Virus record (IMG/VR): IMGVR_UViG_2579779076_000011
Source of the DNA: a virus
Taxonomy: Duplodnaviria > Heunggongvirae > Uroviricota > Caudoviricetes
Reading direction: 5' to 3' (one strand)
DNA: 45,626 bases
The position numbers were made by a program, and so were the translations under genes. Position 1 is the first letter of the stretch; each line of letters opens with the position of its first letter. Of the stretch, positions 28,309 through 45,626 are shown piece by piece. The notes beneath the pieces were generated by a model. The model had not been told where the DNA came from. It searched no databases and saw nothing but the letters and a program-made list of their open reading frames with translations.

Positions 28309-29876
28309 CTGCTCAGCAGTTGCTCGGGCCTGACGGTAAAACGCCACTACGCCGTTACGCGGGGTATAACGGCGGCGGTCCCGGCTTCGGTGGCCAGCTG
28401 ATTGACTGGAATGCACCACAGCAAAGCGCCGATGCGGCACTGCTGCCTAATTTTTATCGCGGTAACGCGCGAGCAGACGATCTCGTTCGTAATAACGGCG
28501 TCGCGTCGAACGCCGTGCAGCTGCATCAGGATCATATCGTCGGCAATCTGTTTAAGTTGAGTTATCGCCCTAACTGGCGTTACATCGGGATATCTCGCGA
28601 GGACGCCAGGGCGCTGGCGCGTGACGTTGAGGTCGCGTGGACTGAATACGCCGAGGACCCTCACTGCACGATTGATATCGAGCGGAAACGGACGTTCACA
28701 ATGATGATTCGCGAAGGCGTGGCCACTCACGCGTTCAACGGTGAAACCTGCGTACAACCGGTGTGGGAGAGCTGCGCCGGCAGCGTTTTTCGGACGCGAT
28801 TCAAAATGGTCTCACCGAAACGAATTCGAAATCCTGGCTACGCAGCTGACACTCAATTTCGCCGCGCCGGTGTTGATATCGATAAAAACGGGGCCGCGGT
28901 TGGGTACTGGATAGCCGAGGATACCTATCCCCTCGGCGGAGTTGGTAAATGCCGGCGCATACCAGCAAAACTCAGCAGCGGCAGACACGCATTCATTCAC
29001 ATATTCGAGCCGCTCGAGGACGGACAAACCCGCGGAGATAACATTTTTTACAGCGTAATGGAGCGGCTGAAAATGCTCGATACGCTGCAGCAAACACAGC
29101 TGCAGAGCGCCATCGTGAAGGCGATGTACGCCGCCACAATCGAATCAGAGCTCGACAGCCAGCAGGCGTTTGAATATATCGCCGGCGCGGGTACTGATAT
29201 CGACTCGAACCCGCTGAGTTCGTTTATTCAGAGTTACGTGACGTACTACAACGGCGCAAATATCAAGCTCGGTGGTGTGAAAGTTCCCCACCTGCATCCC
29301 GGCGACAAACTCAGTTTACAGACCGCTCAGAATGCTGATGCTGGTTTCAGTTCGCTGGAAAAATCACTCCTGCGTTACGTTGCCGCTGGCGTCGGCGCGT
29401 CATATGAGGAACTGAGTCGGGACTACAGCCAGGTCAGTTACTCCAGCGCGCGGGCCAGCGCAAACGTGAGCTGGCGTTTTTTCATGGGCCGTCGACGTTT
29501 TATCGCCGCACGACAGGCGTCACTGATGTTCTGCTGCTGGTTTGAGGAAGCTCTGGCGCGCGGAGTTATCACCCTGCCACGCTCAGCGGTCCGGTCGTTT
29601 TATGAAGCGCGGAACTCCTGGACGAACGCGCTCTGGATCGGCGCTGGTCGCATGGCGATTGATGGGCTGAAAGAGGTTCAGGAGAGCGCCATGCGCATCA
29701 CGACTGGCCTCAGCACGTATCAGAACGAACTCGCGCTGCAGGGGCAGGACTACGAGGAGGTCATGGAACAACAGGAATACGAAATTCAGCGCCGGCGCGA
29801 AATGGGGCTGAGCGAACCATCCTGGTCAGTATCTCACCCCTCAAATACCAACGATAACGGCTGGGGAGGTAACTGA
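28305..29876 (+). CDS. portal protein (lambda gpB-like)
   Basis: 523 aa gene following gpW-like with 4 nt overlap; lambda B-type organisation. Confidence 0.85.
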   Translation: MTAQQLLGPDGKTPLRRYAGYNGGGPGFGGQLIDWNAPQQSADAALLPNFYRGNARADDLVRNNGVASNAVQLHQDHIVGNLFKLSYRPNWRYIGISREDARALARDVEVAWTEYAEDPHCTIDIERKRTFTMMIREGVATHAFNGETCVQPVWESCAGSVFRTRFKMVSPKRIRNPGYAADTQFRRAGVDIDKNGAAVGYWIAEDTYPLGGVGKCRRIPAKLSSGRHAFIHIFEPLEDGQTRGDNIFYSVMERLKMLDTLQQTQLQSAIVKAMYAATIESELDSQQAFEYIAGAGTDIDSNPLSSFIQSYVTYYNGANIKLGGVKVPHLHPGDKLSLQTAQNADAGFSSLEKSLLRYVAAGVGASYEELSRDYSQVSYSSARASANVSWRFFMGRRRFIAARQASLMFCCWFEEALARGVITLPRSAVRSFYEARNSWTNALWIGAGRMAIDGLKEVQESAMRITTGLSTYQNELALQGQDYEEVMEQQEYEIQRRREMGLSEPSWSVSHPSNTNDNGWGGN

Positions 29877-41047: not shown

Positions 41048-42688
41048 ATGGCTATTTCTCAAAACTTTAAAACGCAGGTTGTATTTGGGGGAAGAATAGA
41101 CCCGTCGTTTCGGCGCGGTACAACAGAACTCAACGATGCAATTCGGCAGACGTCGTCTACTGTCGGAAAATTAACGAAAAGCCAGGATAAATTAAAAGAC
41201 AAAATCGCAGCAATGAAACTGGCGGGTAAAGACGTTTCTGATTTATCTGCTCAGTATCAAAAGCTGGACCGTCGGATAAAAGCGACAACACAGGACCAGG
41301 AAGCTCTGAATACTCAGCTCGCCAAAAAACAGCGGCTGGAGAAGTGGACGGGGCGCGCAAAAGGTGCTGCAAAATGGGGAGGGCGAGCCGCCGCAGGTGC
41401 GGTGAGGGCCACGGGACGGGGTATCAAATGGGGGACGCTGGGGGCCGTGGGTCTGCTCGGCGGCGCGGCTGCTGGCGCGTTGGCAATGAATGCAGAGACG
41501 TCAGAAAAACTCGGTCTGGCGAAGTCCTACGGTGTTGGCATCGAAAAATACGCTGCGTGGGAAAATATTGGTAAAGCTGCAGGGCTGAATGGCGAAAACG
41601 TAGGAGATCTGTCGGAGGAGTTGACTAATAAAATCGGGGAGGTTGGAAACGAAAAAAACCTGAACCCCATGTTGTTTCAAATTGGCCTGACAAAAAAACG
41701 GATGGCTAAATGGGATCGAGAAAAACAGTTCAATGAAGTTATGCGGCGTATCTCTGAAATGAAGGATGATCAACAGGCGGCGAGTCTGGCTGATCAGCTC
41801 ATGGGGGGGGAAGCTAATAAAATAATGACTTATATGCGGGCGACTGGTAAAAGCTGGGAGCAGACTCTGTCGGACGCTCAAAAATCAAACCTGCTAACGA
41901 AAGAAGGGGCTGAGGGTGCAGCGCGCGCGCACGTATCCGTCACGAATCTGTGGGGGGCAATCACATCGGGGCTGGCAGATACTCTCGGGAAAATCGGAGG
42001 GGAACTCGCGCCGACGTTTGACGCTATGCGAGACGGGCTGGCATCCTGGTTTAAAGAGAATCAAGGGGGGGTTGTTGATAGTATTAAAGAATGGGTTAAG
42101 CCAGAAAATATGAAAAAAATGTGGGAGGGGATAGTCAGTTTTGGCGAGGCGTGCGTTAAATTCGGAAAAATAATTTGGGCAGTCGTAAAAAAACTGGAGT
42201 GGTTAATACCGGACGAGAAAACAGACGAGGAGCAGCGCGTATATAACGAAGAATATAATAAGGCGTATCAGGAATTCATGGATGGCGGAGGAAAATATTC
42301 ACCAAACCCAGGAATGGCGGCGGATAATGTTGCAAAAGCAAAAGCCGCCGAAGCCGTGGATAATATGCGACACCCTGAACGTCTTGCTCGTGCAAAATCA
42401 CAGGCTGAATCACTGCTCTCGTTTGCTAACCCGTTTACTGGATTAATAAATAAAGGCTCAACGCCTGAATCACAAAACTCAGCAACGTTGAATATTGACG
42501 CGCTGAGACAAGCAGTCGCAACTCCAGCGCCAGAGCAAAACAATAAAATTGAAATCAATATTATCGGAGCGGCAGATCCACAATCAACACAGCAGGCTGC
42601 TGCATCGGGTGTGCTCGACGGGCTGAGACAAGTTGCGAGTTCGTACAACCGTGGTGCGATGTTTGATAAACCAGCGGCGGCGGGGTGA
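41048..42688 (+). CDS. tail tape measure protein
   Basis: 546 aa; coiled N-terminal region, Gly/Ala-rich hydrophobic stretch; position after the chaperone. Confidence 0.8.
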   Translation: MAISQNFKTQVVFGGRIDPSFRRGTTELNDAIRQTSSTVGKLTKSQDKLKDKIAAMKLAGKDVSDLSAQYQKLDRRIKATTQDQEALNTQLAKKQRLEKWTGRAKGAAKWGGRAAAGAVRATGRGIKWGTLGAVGLLGGAAAGALAMNAETSEKLGLAKSYGVGIEKYAAWENIGKAAGLNGENVGDLSEELTNKIGEVGNEKNLNPMLFQIGLTKKRMAKWDREKQFNEVMRRISEMKDDQQAASLADQLMGGEANKIMTYMRATGKSWEQTLSDAQKSNLLTKEGAEGAARAHVSVTNLWGAITSGLADTLGKIGGELAPTFDAMRDGLASWFKENQGGVVDSIKEWVKPENMKKMWEGIVSFGEACVKFGKIIWAVVKKLEWLIPDEKTDEEQRVYNEEYNKAYQEFMDGGGKYSPNPGMAADNVAKAKAAEAVDNMRHPERLARAKSQAESLLSFANPFTGLINKGSTPESQNSATLNIDALRQAVATPAPEQNNKIEINIIGAADPQSTQQAAASGVLDGLRQVASSYNRGAMFDKPAAAG

Positions 42689-43113
42689 CAATGAGTGATG
42701 CGATAAACGGTGCTGAGGATATCATGCTAGGCGTGGGTGATTTCATTTTTGCTATATCAACAGTAGCGTACAACAAACTGCAACGTAGTGACGCCTGGCG
42801 CTGGGCTCAGCAAACACGGTTCGGAAAAAACGACGCATTGCAGATAACCGGACGACCGAACCCCACAATCACGATCGATGGGAAAATAAATGCCTTATTC
42901 CTTGATGGGTGCGGCATTGGCTTGTTAACAGATTTGCGGGCGCTGGGGAACTCGGGAGAACCCCAGCAACTGGTGCTGGGGACCGGGGAGGTGAAGGGGT
43001 ACTGGGTTATCAGGGAGTTAACAGAAACGCAAAACAGTTTTCTGAAAGGAGGGACCCCAAAATCGCAGGACTTTTCACTCACGCTCGAATATTACGGAGC
43101 TTCGCTGGATTGA
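42685..43113 (+). CDS. tail protein (P2 gpU-like)
   Basis: 142 aa; LGVGDFIFAISTVAYNKLQRSDAWRWAQQTRFG parallels the P2 U N-terminus. Confidence 0.7.
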   Translation: MTMSDAINGAEDIMLGVGDFIFAISTVAYNKLQRSDAWRWAQQTRFGKNDALQITGRPNPTITIDGKINALFLDGCGIGLLTDLRALGNSGEPQQLVLGTGEVKGYWVIRELTETQNSFLKGGTPKSQDFSLTLEYYGASLD

Positions 43114-43352
43114 ACTTCTTTCGGTTTTTTATCACCGAGAGCGGACCACAGCAACAGAATGATCCACATCAAAAATATCCATCCGAATAATATATTCAGA
43201 ATAACGACCATTGCGCAGCTTTTATGTCCCCTTATTAGAGCAATTACTAACGGTATTACGTATAAAATGATGGATATTAACGGGTTCGCCATTAACCATA
43301 TATACAGAGCGATAACCCACGCAAATAATTCCATTTGAGGCCTCATAATCAT
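43092..43352 (-). CDS. superinfection-immunity-like small membrane protein (Imm_superinfect-type), reverse-strand moron in tail cluster
   Basis: 86 aa; two hydrophobic helices with ..IPLVIALIRGHKS...ILNILFGWIFLMW.. matching the superinfection immunity family; opposite strand to all flanking tail genes. Confidence 0.6.
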   Translation of the reverse strand: MIMRPQMELFAWVIALYIWLMANPLISIILYVIPLVIALIRGHKSCAMVVILNILFGWIFLMWIILLLWSALGDKKPKEVQSSEAP

Positions 43353-43563
43353 GATTACATATACGACGCGGGACGGTGACCGTCTCGATCAAATCTGCTT
43401 TGCGGTCTACGGGAGAGCGTCAAAAACGACAGAGACTGTTTTATATCAGGTTTCGAATTACGGCGTAACTGATATGTGTGCCGTGTTTCGTGCTGGAGAA
43501 AAAATTGTTTTACCCGATATCGAACCAGAACCGGTTAAAAAAGAAACGCAATTATGGGATTGA
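43351..43563 (+). CDS. tail protein X (P2 gpX-like)
   Basis: 70 aa; RDGDRLDQICFAVYGR....TVLYQ...VLPDIEP..V..ETQLWD parallels P2 X. Confidence 0.8.
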   Translation: MITYTTRDGDRLDQICFAVYGRASKTTETVLYQVSNYGVTDMCAVFRAGEKIVLPDIEPEPVKKETQLWD

Positions 43564-43566
43564 TGA

Positions 43567-44610
43567 ATGAGTGATTACGTAAATACTGGCGTGGAGGCGT
43601 GGAAACCTAATTTTTATATATCTGCTGATAATAAAAACATCACGGATAAAATAAGAAAAGGTTTGATCAATATCACGCTGACAGATTACGGCGGTTCCAG
43701 TAAACAGACAGACGAACTCCGCGTAGCAATAGTTTCTGAAACTCTGAAAATTCCGGCCCGTGGAGTGAAAATTAGCATTGGGCTCGGTTTCGGTAATCAG
43801 ATAATTGATAAAGGCATATACATCGTTGACGGTGCTAGCAGTGGCGGTGAACCCCGGGTAGTTGATTTCACAGCAAAAGCGGCTCCGATGAACGCGGCAA
43901 AGGGCTCTCCAACAGTTCAGAGCAAAAAGACGCGCTCATGGAGCGACGTCACCGTCAGCGATATCGTTGCGACAATAGCGAGCGATAACGGGCTAAAACC
44001 TCGCGTATCAAAGCGGTTTGCAGACAACATTATCACGCAGCTCGATCAAGTCGGTGAGTCAGATATGCACCTGATGTCGAGACTAGCAACACGATTCGAT
44101 GCGGTGAGCAAACCCGCAGGAGGGTACTGGATATTCCTGCCGCGTGGCGCGGGCGAATCTGTTAACGGAGCACCGCTTCTGCACTACACGCTCACGCGTC
44201 GTGATAACTCCAGCTGGGGTTATTCGAGAAATGGACAAAACGGCGATAGTGGCGGAGGTGGCGAAAATTCGGAGCCGACATATCTGATCAAATACCACGA
44301 TACGGCAACAGGGCAGATCAAGGAGCTGCGCACAGGCAGTGGTGGTGATCCTGTCATTGAATGGCCGGCAGTTGAGCCGTCGCTCGACGCAGCGAAAGAG
44401 GCCGCGCCGGGGCTAAAAGGAGGTGCGGCTAAAAAAGAGTTTTCCATGACGTACACAACGCCAGCAACGCTCGATTTAGTATCGCTGACTGCAGAATGCA
44501 AAGTCACAACACAAGGGTTCGGGACAGAGGAGGACCGAGACTGGACAATCAATACGTTGACGCTGACGCTGGCTGAAAACGGATTCTCTGCGCGACTGTC
44601 GCTGGAGTAA
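43567..44610 (+). CDS. tail protein (P2 gpD-like)
   Basis: 347 aa at the canonical D position after X; called by position and size. Confidence 0.65.
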   Translation: MSDYVNTGVEAWKPNFYISADNKNITDKIRKGLINITLTDYGGSSKQTDELRVAIVSETLKIPARGVKISIGLGFGNQIIDKGIYIVDGASSGGEPRVVDFTAKAAPMNAAKGSPTVQSKKTRSWSDVTVSDIVATIASDNGLKPRVSKRFADNIITQLDQVGESDMHLMSRLATRFDAVSKPAGGYWIFLPRGAGESVNGAPLLHYTLTRRDNSSWGYSRNGQNGDSGGGGENSEPTYLIKYHDTATGQIKELRTGSGGDPVIEWPAVEPSLDAAKEAAPGLKGGAAKKEFSMTYTTPATLDLVSLTAECKVTTQGFGTEEDRDWTINTLTLTLAENGFSARLSLE

Positions 44611-44615
44611 ATGAA

Positions 44616-45626
44616 ATGGCAATAATATCGGGTGTATACGCAAATGGGGTCGGCGAGCCCGTTGTCGGCGTTCAGTTAGTATTAACAGCACGGGTCACGA
44701 GTTCACGCGTAGTAATGACCACTGTTGTAGAGCAAGAAACAGGCGCGGCGGGTGAGTACAAATTTGATATGAATCCCGGAGTTTACGTTGTCACTGCTAG
44801 TGCGGCATATCTCGGCGTGATTAACGTTAACCCGGACAGTGTTGACGGCACGTTAAACGACTATTTGACTAATTTTAGCGCAGACGAACTGACGCCAGCT
44901 GCGTTGGCGGAGATTCAAGAGCTAGTATCGGCTGCGAAAAATGCTGCAGCAGCAGCAGACGCCAGCGCCAGTGCGGCGCACACATCTGAAACTAACAGCG
45001 CGAACAGCGCAGCAGCAGCAGCAGCGGCAGCCGCCAGTCTTGACTCGTCAAAATTCGCAAAACTCGATAAGGAAAATGAATTTCTGGAAAAAAACAAATT
45101 CAAAAAATTGGCGACATTTTTGTTGGGTGCCACGTTTGACTCACCGGCGACATTTAATAACAATATCCAGATAGGGAAAAATTCAGCAGGCAACACAAAT
45201 ACAGCATCATGCTATACTGACTTTGATTTATACTTCGGTCGTTCTGTCCGAATTTATTCCACTACAGTTGACGGGGTCAAAAAAAACGGTCAATTAGCAT
45301 TTTGGAGTCCCGGAGGAATATTTCCTGACGCATATATAGAACGCAAGGAAAATTCTTATTTGCAGATTTACGATCACAACGCCTCTAGCCTAAAAATTGA
45401 CTTTCCCTACGGTGCTGCAAATGGTCTGCAATACGTTGGGGCTGATAGGATTGCCCGATCAATATTTCATGATGGGCATCTCCCGCCCGCAGCAGCTGTA
45501 GTGAGTAAACTACCCACAGGAGCAGAACCTAAGACCGCGTTTTACTTCATCAGCGGAGACGAAAAACTTTATTTTGCATACGGAAATAAAAAATATTATA
45601 TACCCGTGATCATTGATGATGATTGA
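44616..45626 (+). CDS. side tail fibre protein (lambda Stf-like N-terminus) with short divergent AT-rich C-terminus
   Basis: N-terminal MAIISGVYANGVGEPV..GTLNDYL followed by an Ala/Ser-rich repeat (DASASAAHTSETNSANSAAAAAAAAAS) parallel to lambda Stf; only 336 aa; C-terminal third low-GC. Confidence 0.7.
   Translation: MAIISGVYANGVGEPVVGVQLVLTARVTSSRVVMTTVVEQETGAAGEYKFDMNPGVYVVTASAAYLGVINVNPDSVDGTLNDYLTNFSADELTPAALAEIQELVSAAKNAAAAADASASAAHTSETNSANSAAAAAAAAASLDSSKFAKLDKENEFLEKNKFKKLATFLLGATFDSPATFNNNIQIGKNSAGNTNTASCYTDFDLYFGRSVRIYSTTVDGVKKNGQLAFWSPGGIFPDAYIERKENSYLQIYDHNASSLKIDFPYGAANGLQYVGADRIARSIFHDGHLPPAAAVVSKLPTGAEPKTAFYFISGDEKLYFAYGNKKYYIPVIIDDD

What the first reader, a model, noticed from the sequence alone, without database searches (positions are those of the whole stretch)
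43092..43352. Reverse-strand superinfection-immunity-like gene inside the tail gene cluster
An 86 aa two-helix membrane protein matching the superinfection immunity family pattern is encoded on the opposite strand between the gpU-like and gpX-like genes, convergently overlapping the 3-prime end of the U-like gene by ~20 nt. It is a moron that would need its own promoter and is likely expressed in the lysogen.
Basis: partly seen in the sequence, partly recalled or inferred. Interest (0 to 1): 0.55.

Follow-up and report, generated by a model that had tools for sequence, protein, structure and literature searches.

The report
Prophage Imm-like exclusion gene in tail cluster
A small membrane-protein gene related to phage T4's Imm (which stops a second phage from injecting its DNA) really does sit backwards between two tail genes of this E. 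coli prophage, but public databases already label it that way, so it is a well-supported yet fairly ordinary find.

Summary
A minus-strand ORF lies between gpU (42685-43113) and gpX (43351-43563) and overlaps the end of gpU by 22 nt. It matches Pfam PF14373 Imm_superinfect above the curated cutoff (42.5 vs 27.9 bits). It aligns over its whole length with T-even Imm proteins (41% identity to a Mosigvirus Imm, 34% to T4 Imm). It is under strong purifying selection.

Refinements:
- The true start is almost certainly the ATG at 43334 (80 aa, GAGG 6 nt upstream), not 43352 (86 aa). RefSeq's 66-aa call is probably too short.
- The model shows three hydrophobic helices, not two.

The window is an E. 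coli chromosomal prophage, and RefSeq already names this gene "superinfection immunity protein".

The U-X junction is a variable-cargo site. It is tight in distant relatives, holds a 173-nt remnant in 435 of 5,426 complete E. coli genomes and this cassette in only 18, and holds other minus-strand membrane-protein genes elsewhere.

The gene fits the moron concept only in part. The cassette contains no promoter or terminator, its GC content is only mildly low, and it has diverged in step with the tail genes.

Expression in the lysogen and exclusion activity remain inferred. Verdict: a new member of a known kind, of low to moderate interest.

The parts
43092..43334 (-). Imm-like (PF14373) gene, most likely coding sequence, 80 aa plus stop: MELFAWVIALYIWLMANPLISIILYVIPLVIALIRGHKSCAMVVILNILFGWIFLMWIILLLWSALGDKKPKEVQSSEAP
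   Evidence: Pfam and PHROG hits. Homologues of 79-80 aa start at MEL/MEIFAW. Full-length alignment to T-even Imm. Purifying selection.
43341..43344 (-). Shine-Dalgarno GAGG, 6 nt upstream of the ATG at 43334
   Evidence: Read from the sequence. Conserved as GAGG/GAGG/AAGG in the E. coli and Salmonella homologous loci.
43335..43352 (-).
   Evidence: None of the 13 aligned database homologues has these residues. Its ATG overlaps the gpX ATG.
43092..43113 (.). 22-nt convergent overlap between the 3' ends of the Imm-like gene and gpU
   Evidence: Coordinates. The same overlap (about 19-22 nt) occurs in the Salmonella and E. coli homologous loci.
43114..43350 (.). 237-nt variable U-X cassette (the cargo slot)
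   Evidence: Similarity to phage vB_EcoM-720R5 breaks at the gpU stop and resumes at the gpX ATG. This cassette is in 18 of 5,426 complete E. coli genomes; the alternative 173-nt spacer is in 435. Other cargos or no spacer occur in other relatives.
42685..43113 (+). gpU-like tail gene
   Evidence: PF06995, E=1e-32.
43351..43563 (+). gpX-like tail gene; any nearby promoter for the Imm-like gene must lie antisense inside it
   Evidence: PF05489, E=2e-15. Only 16 nt separate it from the Imm-like start.
43440..43448 (-). Low-confidence candidate extended -10 (TGaTATAAA) antisense within gpX, about 100 nt upstream of the ATG
   Evidence: Lies within a 21-nt block invariant in four diverged loci. 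In 7 cargo-bearing loci there is a run of 4 invariant synonymous sites, permutation p about 0.015, not corrected for phylogeny. Against: the hexamer lacks T at -7, the -35 matches only 3 of 6, and some no-cargo relatives keep the same sequence.

Best explanation
This is a real, expressed 80-aa gene (43092-43334, minus strand) of an E. coli prophage with a contractile tail. It encodes a small, very hydrophobic protein of the T4 Imm family (PF14373). The most likely mechanism, by analogy with T4 Imm, has three steps. [quoted passage not shown] There it prevents DNA from an adsorbed superinfecting phage from crossing the cytoplasmic membrane. Adsorption still occurs, but the infection aborts. It occupies a cargo slot at the gpU-gpX junction of the tail operon, reading against the late genes. 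Late-operon transcription would therefore run antisense to it, which favours its expression when the late operon is silent. Shown here: the gene is real and conserved, it belongs to the family, its architecture matches T-even Imm, and the slot is variable. Inferred: membrane location, block of DNA entry, timing of expression, and which phages are excluded.
For: PF14373 at 42.5 bits against a cutoff of 27.9. PHROG 1039 'immunity to superinfection' at 3e-14. 41% identity over 73 aa from residue 1 to a Mosigvirus Imm that sits next to spackle. 34% identity over 65 aa to T4 Imm. Shared Y-x-L-P-x-x-I-A-L-(I/M)-R-G-x-K-S loop and LF(G/N)W...W...W motifs, and the same length. Three predicted hydrophobic helices and a charged tail. 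pN of 0.10-0.20 with saturated synonymous sites. Conserved position, orientation and 3' overlap in E. coli, E. whittamii and Salmonella prophages. A 39%-identical homologue lies on the opposite strand just after gpD in Enterobacter prophages with the same tail module. RefSeq names the gene 'superinfection immunity protein'. T4 Imm is reported to block secondary-phage genome translocation without blocking adsorption and appears to be a plasma-membrane protein (PMC6832632; PMC11436027). HK97 gp15 is a precedent for an inner-membrane exclusion protein encoded inside a tail operon (PMC3594210).
Against: Among the papers read here, only T4 Imm is described with experimental data, and the family is very large (2,925 cluster representatives at E<=1e-3). 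T-even Imm is only a mid-ranking relative at 43-48 bits, so transferring its function is uncertain. No promoter or terminator could be identified. The gene matches no PADLOC or NCBIfam model. Nothing here shows expression or any exclusion phenotype.
Confidence: 0.6

Rival explanations
1. It is a small inner-membrane protein of the Imm fold that serves the phage's own lytic cycle rather than defending the lysogen. Possible roles are protecting the infected or induced cell envelope from damage by secondary adsorptions ('lysis from without' or traumatisation), or modulating lysis timing in a holin- or antiholin-like way.
For: T4 Imm also contributes to resistance to lysis from without and to delaying collapse of lysis inhibition, and is said to resemble a holin (PMC6832632). 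The protein has holin-like features: 2-3 hydrophobic helices and a charged C-terminal tail.
Against: The gene reads antisense to the late operon, which makes co-expression with late and lysis functions awkward. In the collinear E24377A record the prophage has its own holin and endolysin genes elsewhere. Pfam returns only PF14373 and no holin family at E<=0.1.
Confidence: 0.15
2. It is a conserved membrane cargo gene with a host-fitness role unrelated to phage entry, such as envelope stress or transport modulation. On this view the 'superinfection immunity' label is only an inherited family name.
For: The family is very large and mostly uncharacterised. Most members share only the two-helix core (residues about 19-75). 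The other cargos found in the same slot are unrelated membrane proteins of unknown function.
Against: The full-length architecture, including the N-terminal hydrophobic helix and the loop motif, is shared with T-even Imm. Family members are found at the distal end of the tail module at two different insertion points.
Confidence: 0.2
3. It is a chance or decaying antisense ORF that is not expressed.
For: No recognisable promoter or terminator was found. Annotated starts are inconsistent: 66 aa in RefSeq E24377A, 80 aa in most database entries, 86 aa as the longest ORF. Most related E. coli prophages lack the gene.
Against: The profile hit is above the curated threshold. The Shine-Dalgarno sequence is conserved. 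Amino-acid identity of 70-81% is retained across loci whose synonymous sites are saturated.
Confidence: 0.03

Closest known systems
Phage T4 Imm (immunity to superinfection; founding and only characterised member of PF14373 as far as I know) and its T-even orthologues
   Same: Same Pfam family above threshold. Nearly the same length (80 vs 82-83 aa). Collinear over the full length from an ME(L/T) start. Same loop and tryptophan motifs. Same all-hydrophobic architecture with a charged tail.
   Different: Only 34-41% identical, and not the closest relatives. T4 imm belongs to a virulent phage and in the Mosigvirus record sits beside spackle. Here the gene is in a temperate prophage, antisense inside the tail operon. 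Timing of expression and target range are unknown. This protein has an Asn-Pro kink in the N-terminal hydrophobic stretch that the T-even proteins lack.
HK97 gp15 moron (YebO-family superinfection exclusion protein inside the tail operon)
   Same: A small inner-membrane protein gene inserted between tail genes of a temperate coliphage. HK97 gp15 is expressed from the prophage and blocks genome entry depending on features of the incoming tail (PMC3594210). It is the best functional and positional analogy.
   Different: The protein family is unrelated; Pfam returns only PF14373 here. Morons are described as having their own promoter and terminator (PMC3594210). This cassette contains neither, and it reads against the operon.
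Enterobacter asburiae prophage Imm_superinfect homologue (P0020/P0174, 112 aa)
   Same: 39% identical, on the opposite strand, at the distal end of the same sheath-tube-TAC-TMP-U-X-D tail module.
   Different: It lies after gpD rather than between U and X. It carries a C-terminal extension of about 35 aa with Cys pairs. It has about 600 nt of upstream intergenic DNA and a strong intrinsic terminator after its stop codon.
P22 SieA
   Same: A prophage-expressed inner-membrane protein that blocks DNA entry by superinfecting phages (PMC10883804 abstract; PMC11436027).
   Different: No sequence relationship was tested or detected. This is a functional analogy only.

Membership tests
PF14373 Imm_superinfect / T4 Imm family | Profile match above the curated gathering score | tested here: met
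   42.5 bits against a cutoff of 27.9, E=5.8e-11, covering positions 1-41 of the 42-position model. PHROG 1039 at 3e-14.
PF14373 Imm_superinfect / T4 Imm family | Full-length collinearity and similar size to the characterised T-even Imm (about 83 aa) | tested here: met
   80 aa against 82-83 aa. BLASTP gives 41% identity over 73 aa from residue 1 (Mosigvirus) and 34% over 65 aa (T4). Multiple alignment.
PF14373 Imm_superinfect / T4 Imm family | Two or more hydrophobic membrane helices joined by a short basic loop, followed by a hydrophilic tail | tested here: met
   Hydropathy profile. AlphaFold2 helices 2-16, 18-35 and 38-67 at pLDDT 68.8. Basic residues R35, H37 and K38 in the loop; K69, K70 and K72 in the tail.
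PF14373 Imm_superinfect / T4 Imm family | Inner-membrane location and membrane topology | not testable with these tools
   Prediction only. The positive-inside rule is ambiguous because both the loop and the tail are basic. The T4 topology paper (PMC237878) is not held in the library.
PF14373 Imm_superinfect / T4 Imm family | Blocks genome translocation of superinfecting phage without blocking adsorption | not testable with these tools
   Needs plating, adsorption and DNA-entry assays.
Moron (as described in PMC3594210, citing Juhala et al. 2000) | Extra DNA between genes that are adjacent in related phages | tested here: met
   U and X are about 11-15 nt apart in L027-L032. Similarity to closer relatives breaks at the U stop and the X ATG.
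Moron (as described in PMC3594210, citing Juhala et al. 2000) | Own promoter | tested here: inconclusive
   Only 16 nt lie upstream within the cassette. No minus-strand sigma-70 hit within 1.9 kb upstream. The best PWM score of 9.06 equals background, about 1 per kb per strand. There is a weak candidate, TGaTATAAA, inside gpX.
Moron (as described in PMC3594210, citing Juhala et al. 2000) | Own terminator | tested here: not met
   No terminator-like site on the minus strand downstream of the gene. The downstream region folds no better than shuffles, z=-0.42. The 3' end overlaps gpU.
Moron (as described in PMC3594210, citing Juhala et al. 2000) | Base composition different from the neighbours | tested here: inconclusive
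   GC 0.387 against a window mean of 0.48 (sd 0.069); 10% of same-sized windows are as low. gpX (0.437) and the 5' end of gpD are also low.
Moron (as described in PMC3594210, citing Juhala et al. 2000) | Expressed from the repressed prophage | not testable with these tools
   Needs a transcriptome or TSS map of a lysogen.
HK97 gp15 / YebO family | Sequence membership | tested here: not met
   The Pfam scan at E<=0.1 returns only PF14373.
Holins | Match to a holin family and location in a lysis cassette | tested here: not met
   No holin family in Pfam, PHROGs or NCBIfam. In the collinear E24377A record the prophage's holin and endolysin genes are annotated elsewhere.

The most novel reading that the evidence does not exclude
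The gpU-gpX junction of this family of contractile tail modules may be a dedicated expression slot. Under this reading, a promoter embedded antisense in the 5' part of gpX (around the TGaTATA(A/G) block) drives whichever minus-strand membrane-protein cargo sits there: the Imm homologue, the 176-aa and 220-aa proteins, the 66-aa protein, or the truncated 44-aa remnant. The Imm homologue would be matched to, and co-evolving with, its own tail's DNA-delivery parts (tape measure and hub), so that it excludes phages with the same tail type. That would make it a swappable anti-injection cassette system built into the tail operon.
Probability: 0.15. Interest if true: 0.55.

Novelty: new member of a known kind. 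Interest (0 to 1): 0.3.

Why it matters
The mechanism of T4 Imm is still described as poorly understood (PMC6832632). A homologue carried by a temperate E. coli prophage could be studied in a stable lysogen or from a plasmid, without the complication of a lytic T4 infection. Escape mutants in the incoming phage's tail could then be selected, as was done for HK97 gp15. The comparative picture also marks a specific junction in a common enterobacterial prophage tail module as a place where small anti-phage or membrane cargo genes accumulate. That is useful for mining defence genes. On its own, though, the gene is a database-annotated member of a known family, and nothing here contradicts expectations.

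Tried and rejected
- NCBIfam and PADLOC gave no hit for the protein.
- Rfam at E<=1 found nothing across 42400-44000.
- The PDB sequence search gave only a designed transmembrane protein at E=0.013, which is a hydrophobicity match.
- Foldseek against viral models gave nothing at E<=0.001, so it was uninformative for a small helical membrane protein.
- Promoter search: the tool's consensus scans and my own PWM found nothing above background on the minus strand. TGTAAT/TATATG next to the gpX ATG was rejected because it lacks A at -11 or T at -7.
- I first thought the 21-nt invariant block in gpX was strong evidence for an embedded promoter. With more sequences it is only suggestive: p is about 0.015 among cargo-bearing loci and 0.27 with no-cargo loci included, and some no-cargo loci keep the sequence.
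- A recent exchange with T-even phages was rejected, because T-even Imm ranks well below the enterobacterial chromosomal homologues.
- Locus searches in viral contigs with the Citrobacter and Enterobacter homologues found nothing. The mixed alignment A6 was too divergent to search with.
- The original T4 Imm papers (PMC250924, PMC237878) are not held.
- One literature query failed on a short search term.

Full report
**1. What is in the sequence**

Pfam identifies its neighbours. 42685-43113 is Phage_P2_GpU (E=1e-32). 43351-43563 is Phage_tail_X (E=2e-15). 43567-44610 is a weak gpD match. The 546-aa ORF upstream (41048-42688) occupies the tape-measure position. The ORF and gpU converge and share 22 nt (43092-43113).

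ORF length alone is not evidence of a gene, because a 91-aa antisense ORF also lies inside gpU.

**2. It is a real gene of the Imm family**

- The protein hits PF14373 Imm_superinfect at E=5.8e-11, 42.5 bits against a curated cutoff of 27.9, covering nearly the whole model.
- It hits PHROG 1039 'immunity to superinfection' at 3e-14.
- BLASTP against the Imm of a Mosigvirus, where imm lies next to spackle, gives 41% identity over 73 aa starting at residue 1 of both proteins.
- Against T4 Imm itself it gives 34% identity over 65 aa, pairwise E=5e-13.
- The multiple alignment shows a shared N-terminus (ME-L/I...), a shared Y-x-L-P-x-x-I-A-L-(I/M)-R-G-x-K-S loop and a shared LF(G/N)W...W...W motif.
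- Between the window and homologous loci in another E. coli lineage (L005) and in Salmonella (L004), synonymous sites are saturated (pS 0.92 and 0.78). Non-synonymous divergence is only pN 0.10 and 0.20. This is strong purifying selection.

**3. Corrected gene model**

Twelve of them start MEL/MEIFAW and are 79-86 aa long; the other, P0017, is a 54-aa N-terminally truncated call. The 80-aa form is the most abundant in the database (P0001: 100% identical, seen on at least 1,000 contigs). T-even Imm aligns from that Met.

On the minus strand, a GAGG at 43344-43341 lies 6 nt upstream of the ATG at 43334. It is conserved as GAGG/GAGG/AAGG in the homologous loci.

The gene is therefore most likely 43092..43334 (80 aa). 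RefSeq's E24377A record calls it at 66 aa (43092..43292), which would remove the first hydrophobic helix.

AlphaFold2 on a shallow alignment (pLDDT 68.8) predicts helices 2-16, 18-35 (kink at Asn17-Pro18) and 38-67, then a disordered charged tail. 'Two-helix' describes the Pfam core, not the whole protein. Most family members align only to residues about 19-75.

**4. Where the window comes from**

The 2.7-kb segment around the gene is 100% identical to chromosomal prophages of E. coli E24377A, SE11, RM9387 and others. Over window 24128-45626, the part compared, the window is collinear with the E24377A prophage except that it lacks the IS21-like insertion in the portal gene.

The prophage combines three parts:
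- a lambdoid regulatory and lysis region: integrase next to tRNA-Ser, CI/Cro-type regulators, Q, holins;
- a lambda-like head;
- a P2/Mu-like contractile tail.

RefSeq already annotates the gene as 'superinfection immunity protein' (WP_224695433.1).

**5. The U-X junction is a variable-cargo site**

Against phage vB_EcoM-720R5, whose flanks are about 87% identical, the alignment breaks exactly at the gpU stop and resumes at the gpX ATG.

Among 5,426 complete E. coli genomes:

| Feature | Genomes |
|---|---|
| This tail segment | 456 |
| This 237-nt cassette (all at least 99% identical) | 18 |
| Alternative 173-nt spacer, nothing annotated | 435 |

The 173-nt spacer holds a 44-aa minus-strand ORF. 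That ORF is 60% identical to residues 11-53 of a 176-aa minus-strand ORF in the same slot of an IMG/VR relative, L026. The common spacer therefore looks like a deletion remnant of a larger cargo gene.

Other relatives differ again:
- L026 carries about 1,270 nt with two minus-strand ORFs of 176 and 220 aa; by inspection both have a hydrophobic N-terminal stretch.
- L025 carries about 600 nt with minus-strand ORFs of 66 and 105 aa.
- L027-L032 have no spacer, with U and X about 11-15 nt apart.

None of the alternative cargos matches Pfam, PHROGs or PADLOC.

**6. An old resident rather than a recent insertion**

Imm-like homologues of 70-93% identity lie in the same slot, in the same orientation and with the same 3' overlap, in other E. 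coli, E. whittamii and Salmonella prophages. Their divergence (dN 0.11 and 0.235) tracks that of flanking U (0.087 and 0.283), X (0.103 and 0.110) and D (0.081 and 0.192).

The next-closest relatives are chromosomal proteins of 108-113 aa in Citrobacter, Cronobacter and Enterobacter. The Enterobacter one lies on the opposite strand immediately after gpD, in the same kind of tail module, with U and X overlapping tightly. Imm-family genes thus occur at the distal end of this tail module at two or more insertion points. T-even Imm is a clear but mid-ranking relative at 43-48 bits, against 55-86 bits for those homologues. I do not propose a recent exchange with T-even phages.

**7. Expression signals are unresolved**

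Only 16 nt separate the ATG at 43334 from the gpX ATG, so the cassette cannot contain a promoter. The evidence on the minus strand is as follows.
- The consensus scan finds no sigma-70-like site between 42600 and 43900. The nearest is about 1.9 kb upstream in the tail-fibre gene, with two terminator-like sites in between.
- My PWM scan's best score (9.06, in the AT-rich 5' end of gpD) occurs about once per kb per strand by chance.
- A 21-nt block invariant in four diverged loci contains TGaTATAAA at 43448-43440.
- Among seven non-redundant cargo-bearing gpX alleles, the four codons covering that block form the longest run of invariant synonymous sites. The permutation p is about 0.015, not corrected for phylogeny, and rises to 0.27 when no-cargo alleles are added.
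- Against this candidate, the hexamer lacks T at -7, the -35 matches only 3 of 6, and some no-cargo relatives keep the same sequence.

I treat this block as a weak candidate only.

No terminator follows the gene; the downstream fold has z=-0.42. The Enterobacter homologue, by contrast, has a strong intrinsic terminator after its stop codon. GC content is 0.387 against a window mean of 0.48, and 10% of same-sized windows are as low. The gene therefore meets the comparative criterion for a moron but not the 'independent transcription unit' criteria.

**8. Mechanism**

T4 imm and sp are reported to block genome translocation of secondary phages without blocking adsorption, and Imm appears to be a plasma-membrane protein (PMC6832632; PMC11436027). 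HK97 gp15 is the precedent for a small inner-membrane exclusion protein encoded within a tail operon and expressed from the prophage (PMC3594210).

By homology and context, the most likely role here is blocking DNA entry at the inner membrane. Because the gene reads against the late operon, late transcription would oppose it. That fits expression when late genes are off, but it is inference.

Rival explanations are: a role in the phage's own lytic cycle (envelope protection or lysis timing); an unrelated membrane fitness function; or a non-expressed ORF. The last is essentially excluded by the selection data.

**9. Novelty and verdict**

The library holds no paper on Imm homologues in prophage tail modules. 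However, the gene is already named in RefSeq and belongs to a known family by every testable criterion.

It is a new, uncharacterised member of a known kind. The useful additions from this work are:
- the corrected start at 43334 (80 aa);
- the three-helix architecture;
- the finding that the U-X junction is a cargo hotspot that mostly holds a remnant in E. coli;
- the absence of recognisable transcription signals in the cassette.

Interest is low to moderate.

Noticed in passing
L002 4115-4287 (phage vB_EcoM-720R5); same position as window 43114-43350: The alternative 173-nt U-X spacer is present in 435 of 5,426 complete E. coli genomes with nothing annotated. It carries a 44-aa minus-strand ORF (L002 4122..4256) with a hydrophobic stretch and what looks like an AAGGA ribosome-binding site upstream. 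The ORF is 60% identical to the N-terminus of a 176-aa ORF in L026, so it looks like a truncated remnant of a larger cargo gene.
   Followed up: partly
L026 229-1491 and L025 896-1517 (IMG/VR relatives): Other cargos occupy the same U-X slot, all on the strand opposite the tail genes. L026 has ORFs of 176 aa and 220 aa, each with a hydrophobic N-terminal stretch. L025 has ORFs of 66 aa and 105 aa. None matches Pfam, PHROGs or PADLOC; they are candidate unknown prophage membrane or exclusion proteins.
   Followed up: partly
L038 5001-5339 and L041 5001-5339 (Enterobacter asburiae-type prophages): A 112-aa Imm_superinfect homologue (39% identity) with a Cys-pair C-terminal extension lies on the opposite strand directly after gpD. 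It is followed by a strong intrinsic terminator (GAGGGCGGTCCGCCCTC plus a T-run). This is a second insertion point for Imm-family genes in the same tail module.
   Followed up: partly
window 43292 vs 43334 vs 43352: Public start-codon calls disagree. RefSeq E24377A annotates 66 aa (WP_224695433.1), most database entries give 80 aa, and the longest ORF is 86 aa. In strain E62 the same DNA is labelled only 'hypothetical protein'.
   Followed up: yes
window about 28939-28944: The window lacks the IS21-like ISEc62 insertion (istA/istB) that splits the portal gene of the otherwise 99.9%-identical prophage in E. coli E24377A. The portal gene is therefore not split by that IS here.
   Followed up: partly
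window 44616-45626: The last gene is annotated 'prophage tail fiber N-terminal domain-containing protein'. It is only 336 aa and ends exactly at the window's end. The corresponding genes in relatives are 454 aa (Salmonella L004) and 609 aa (E. coli L005). In E24377A about 1 kb of unannotated DNA follows before host yodB. The fibre may be truncated and the prophage possibly defective.
   Followed up: no
window 43432-43452 (minus strand), inside gpX: A 21-nt block, AACCTGATATAAAACAGTCTC, is invariant in four loci whose synonymous sites are otherwise saturated. It covers gpX residues E-T-V-L-Y-Q-V. This may reflect a dual constraint such as an antisense promoter, or simply codon preference.
   Followed up: partly
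window 42807-43082 (minus strand), inside gpU: A 91-aa antisense ORF within gpU is also open, at the same length, in phage vB_EcoM-720R5 (L002 3808..4083). It is probably a by-product of gpU's codon usage and was not examined further.
   Followed up: no
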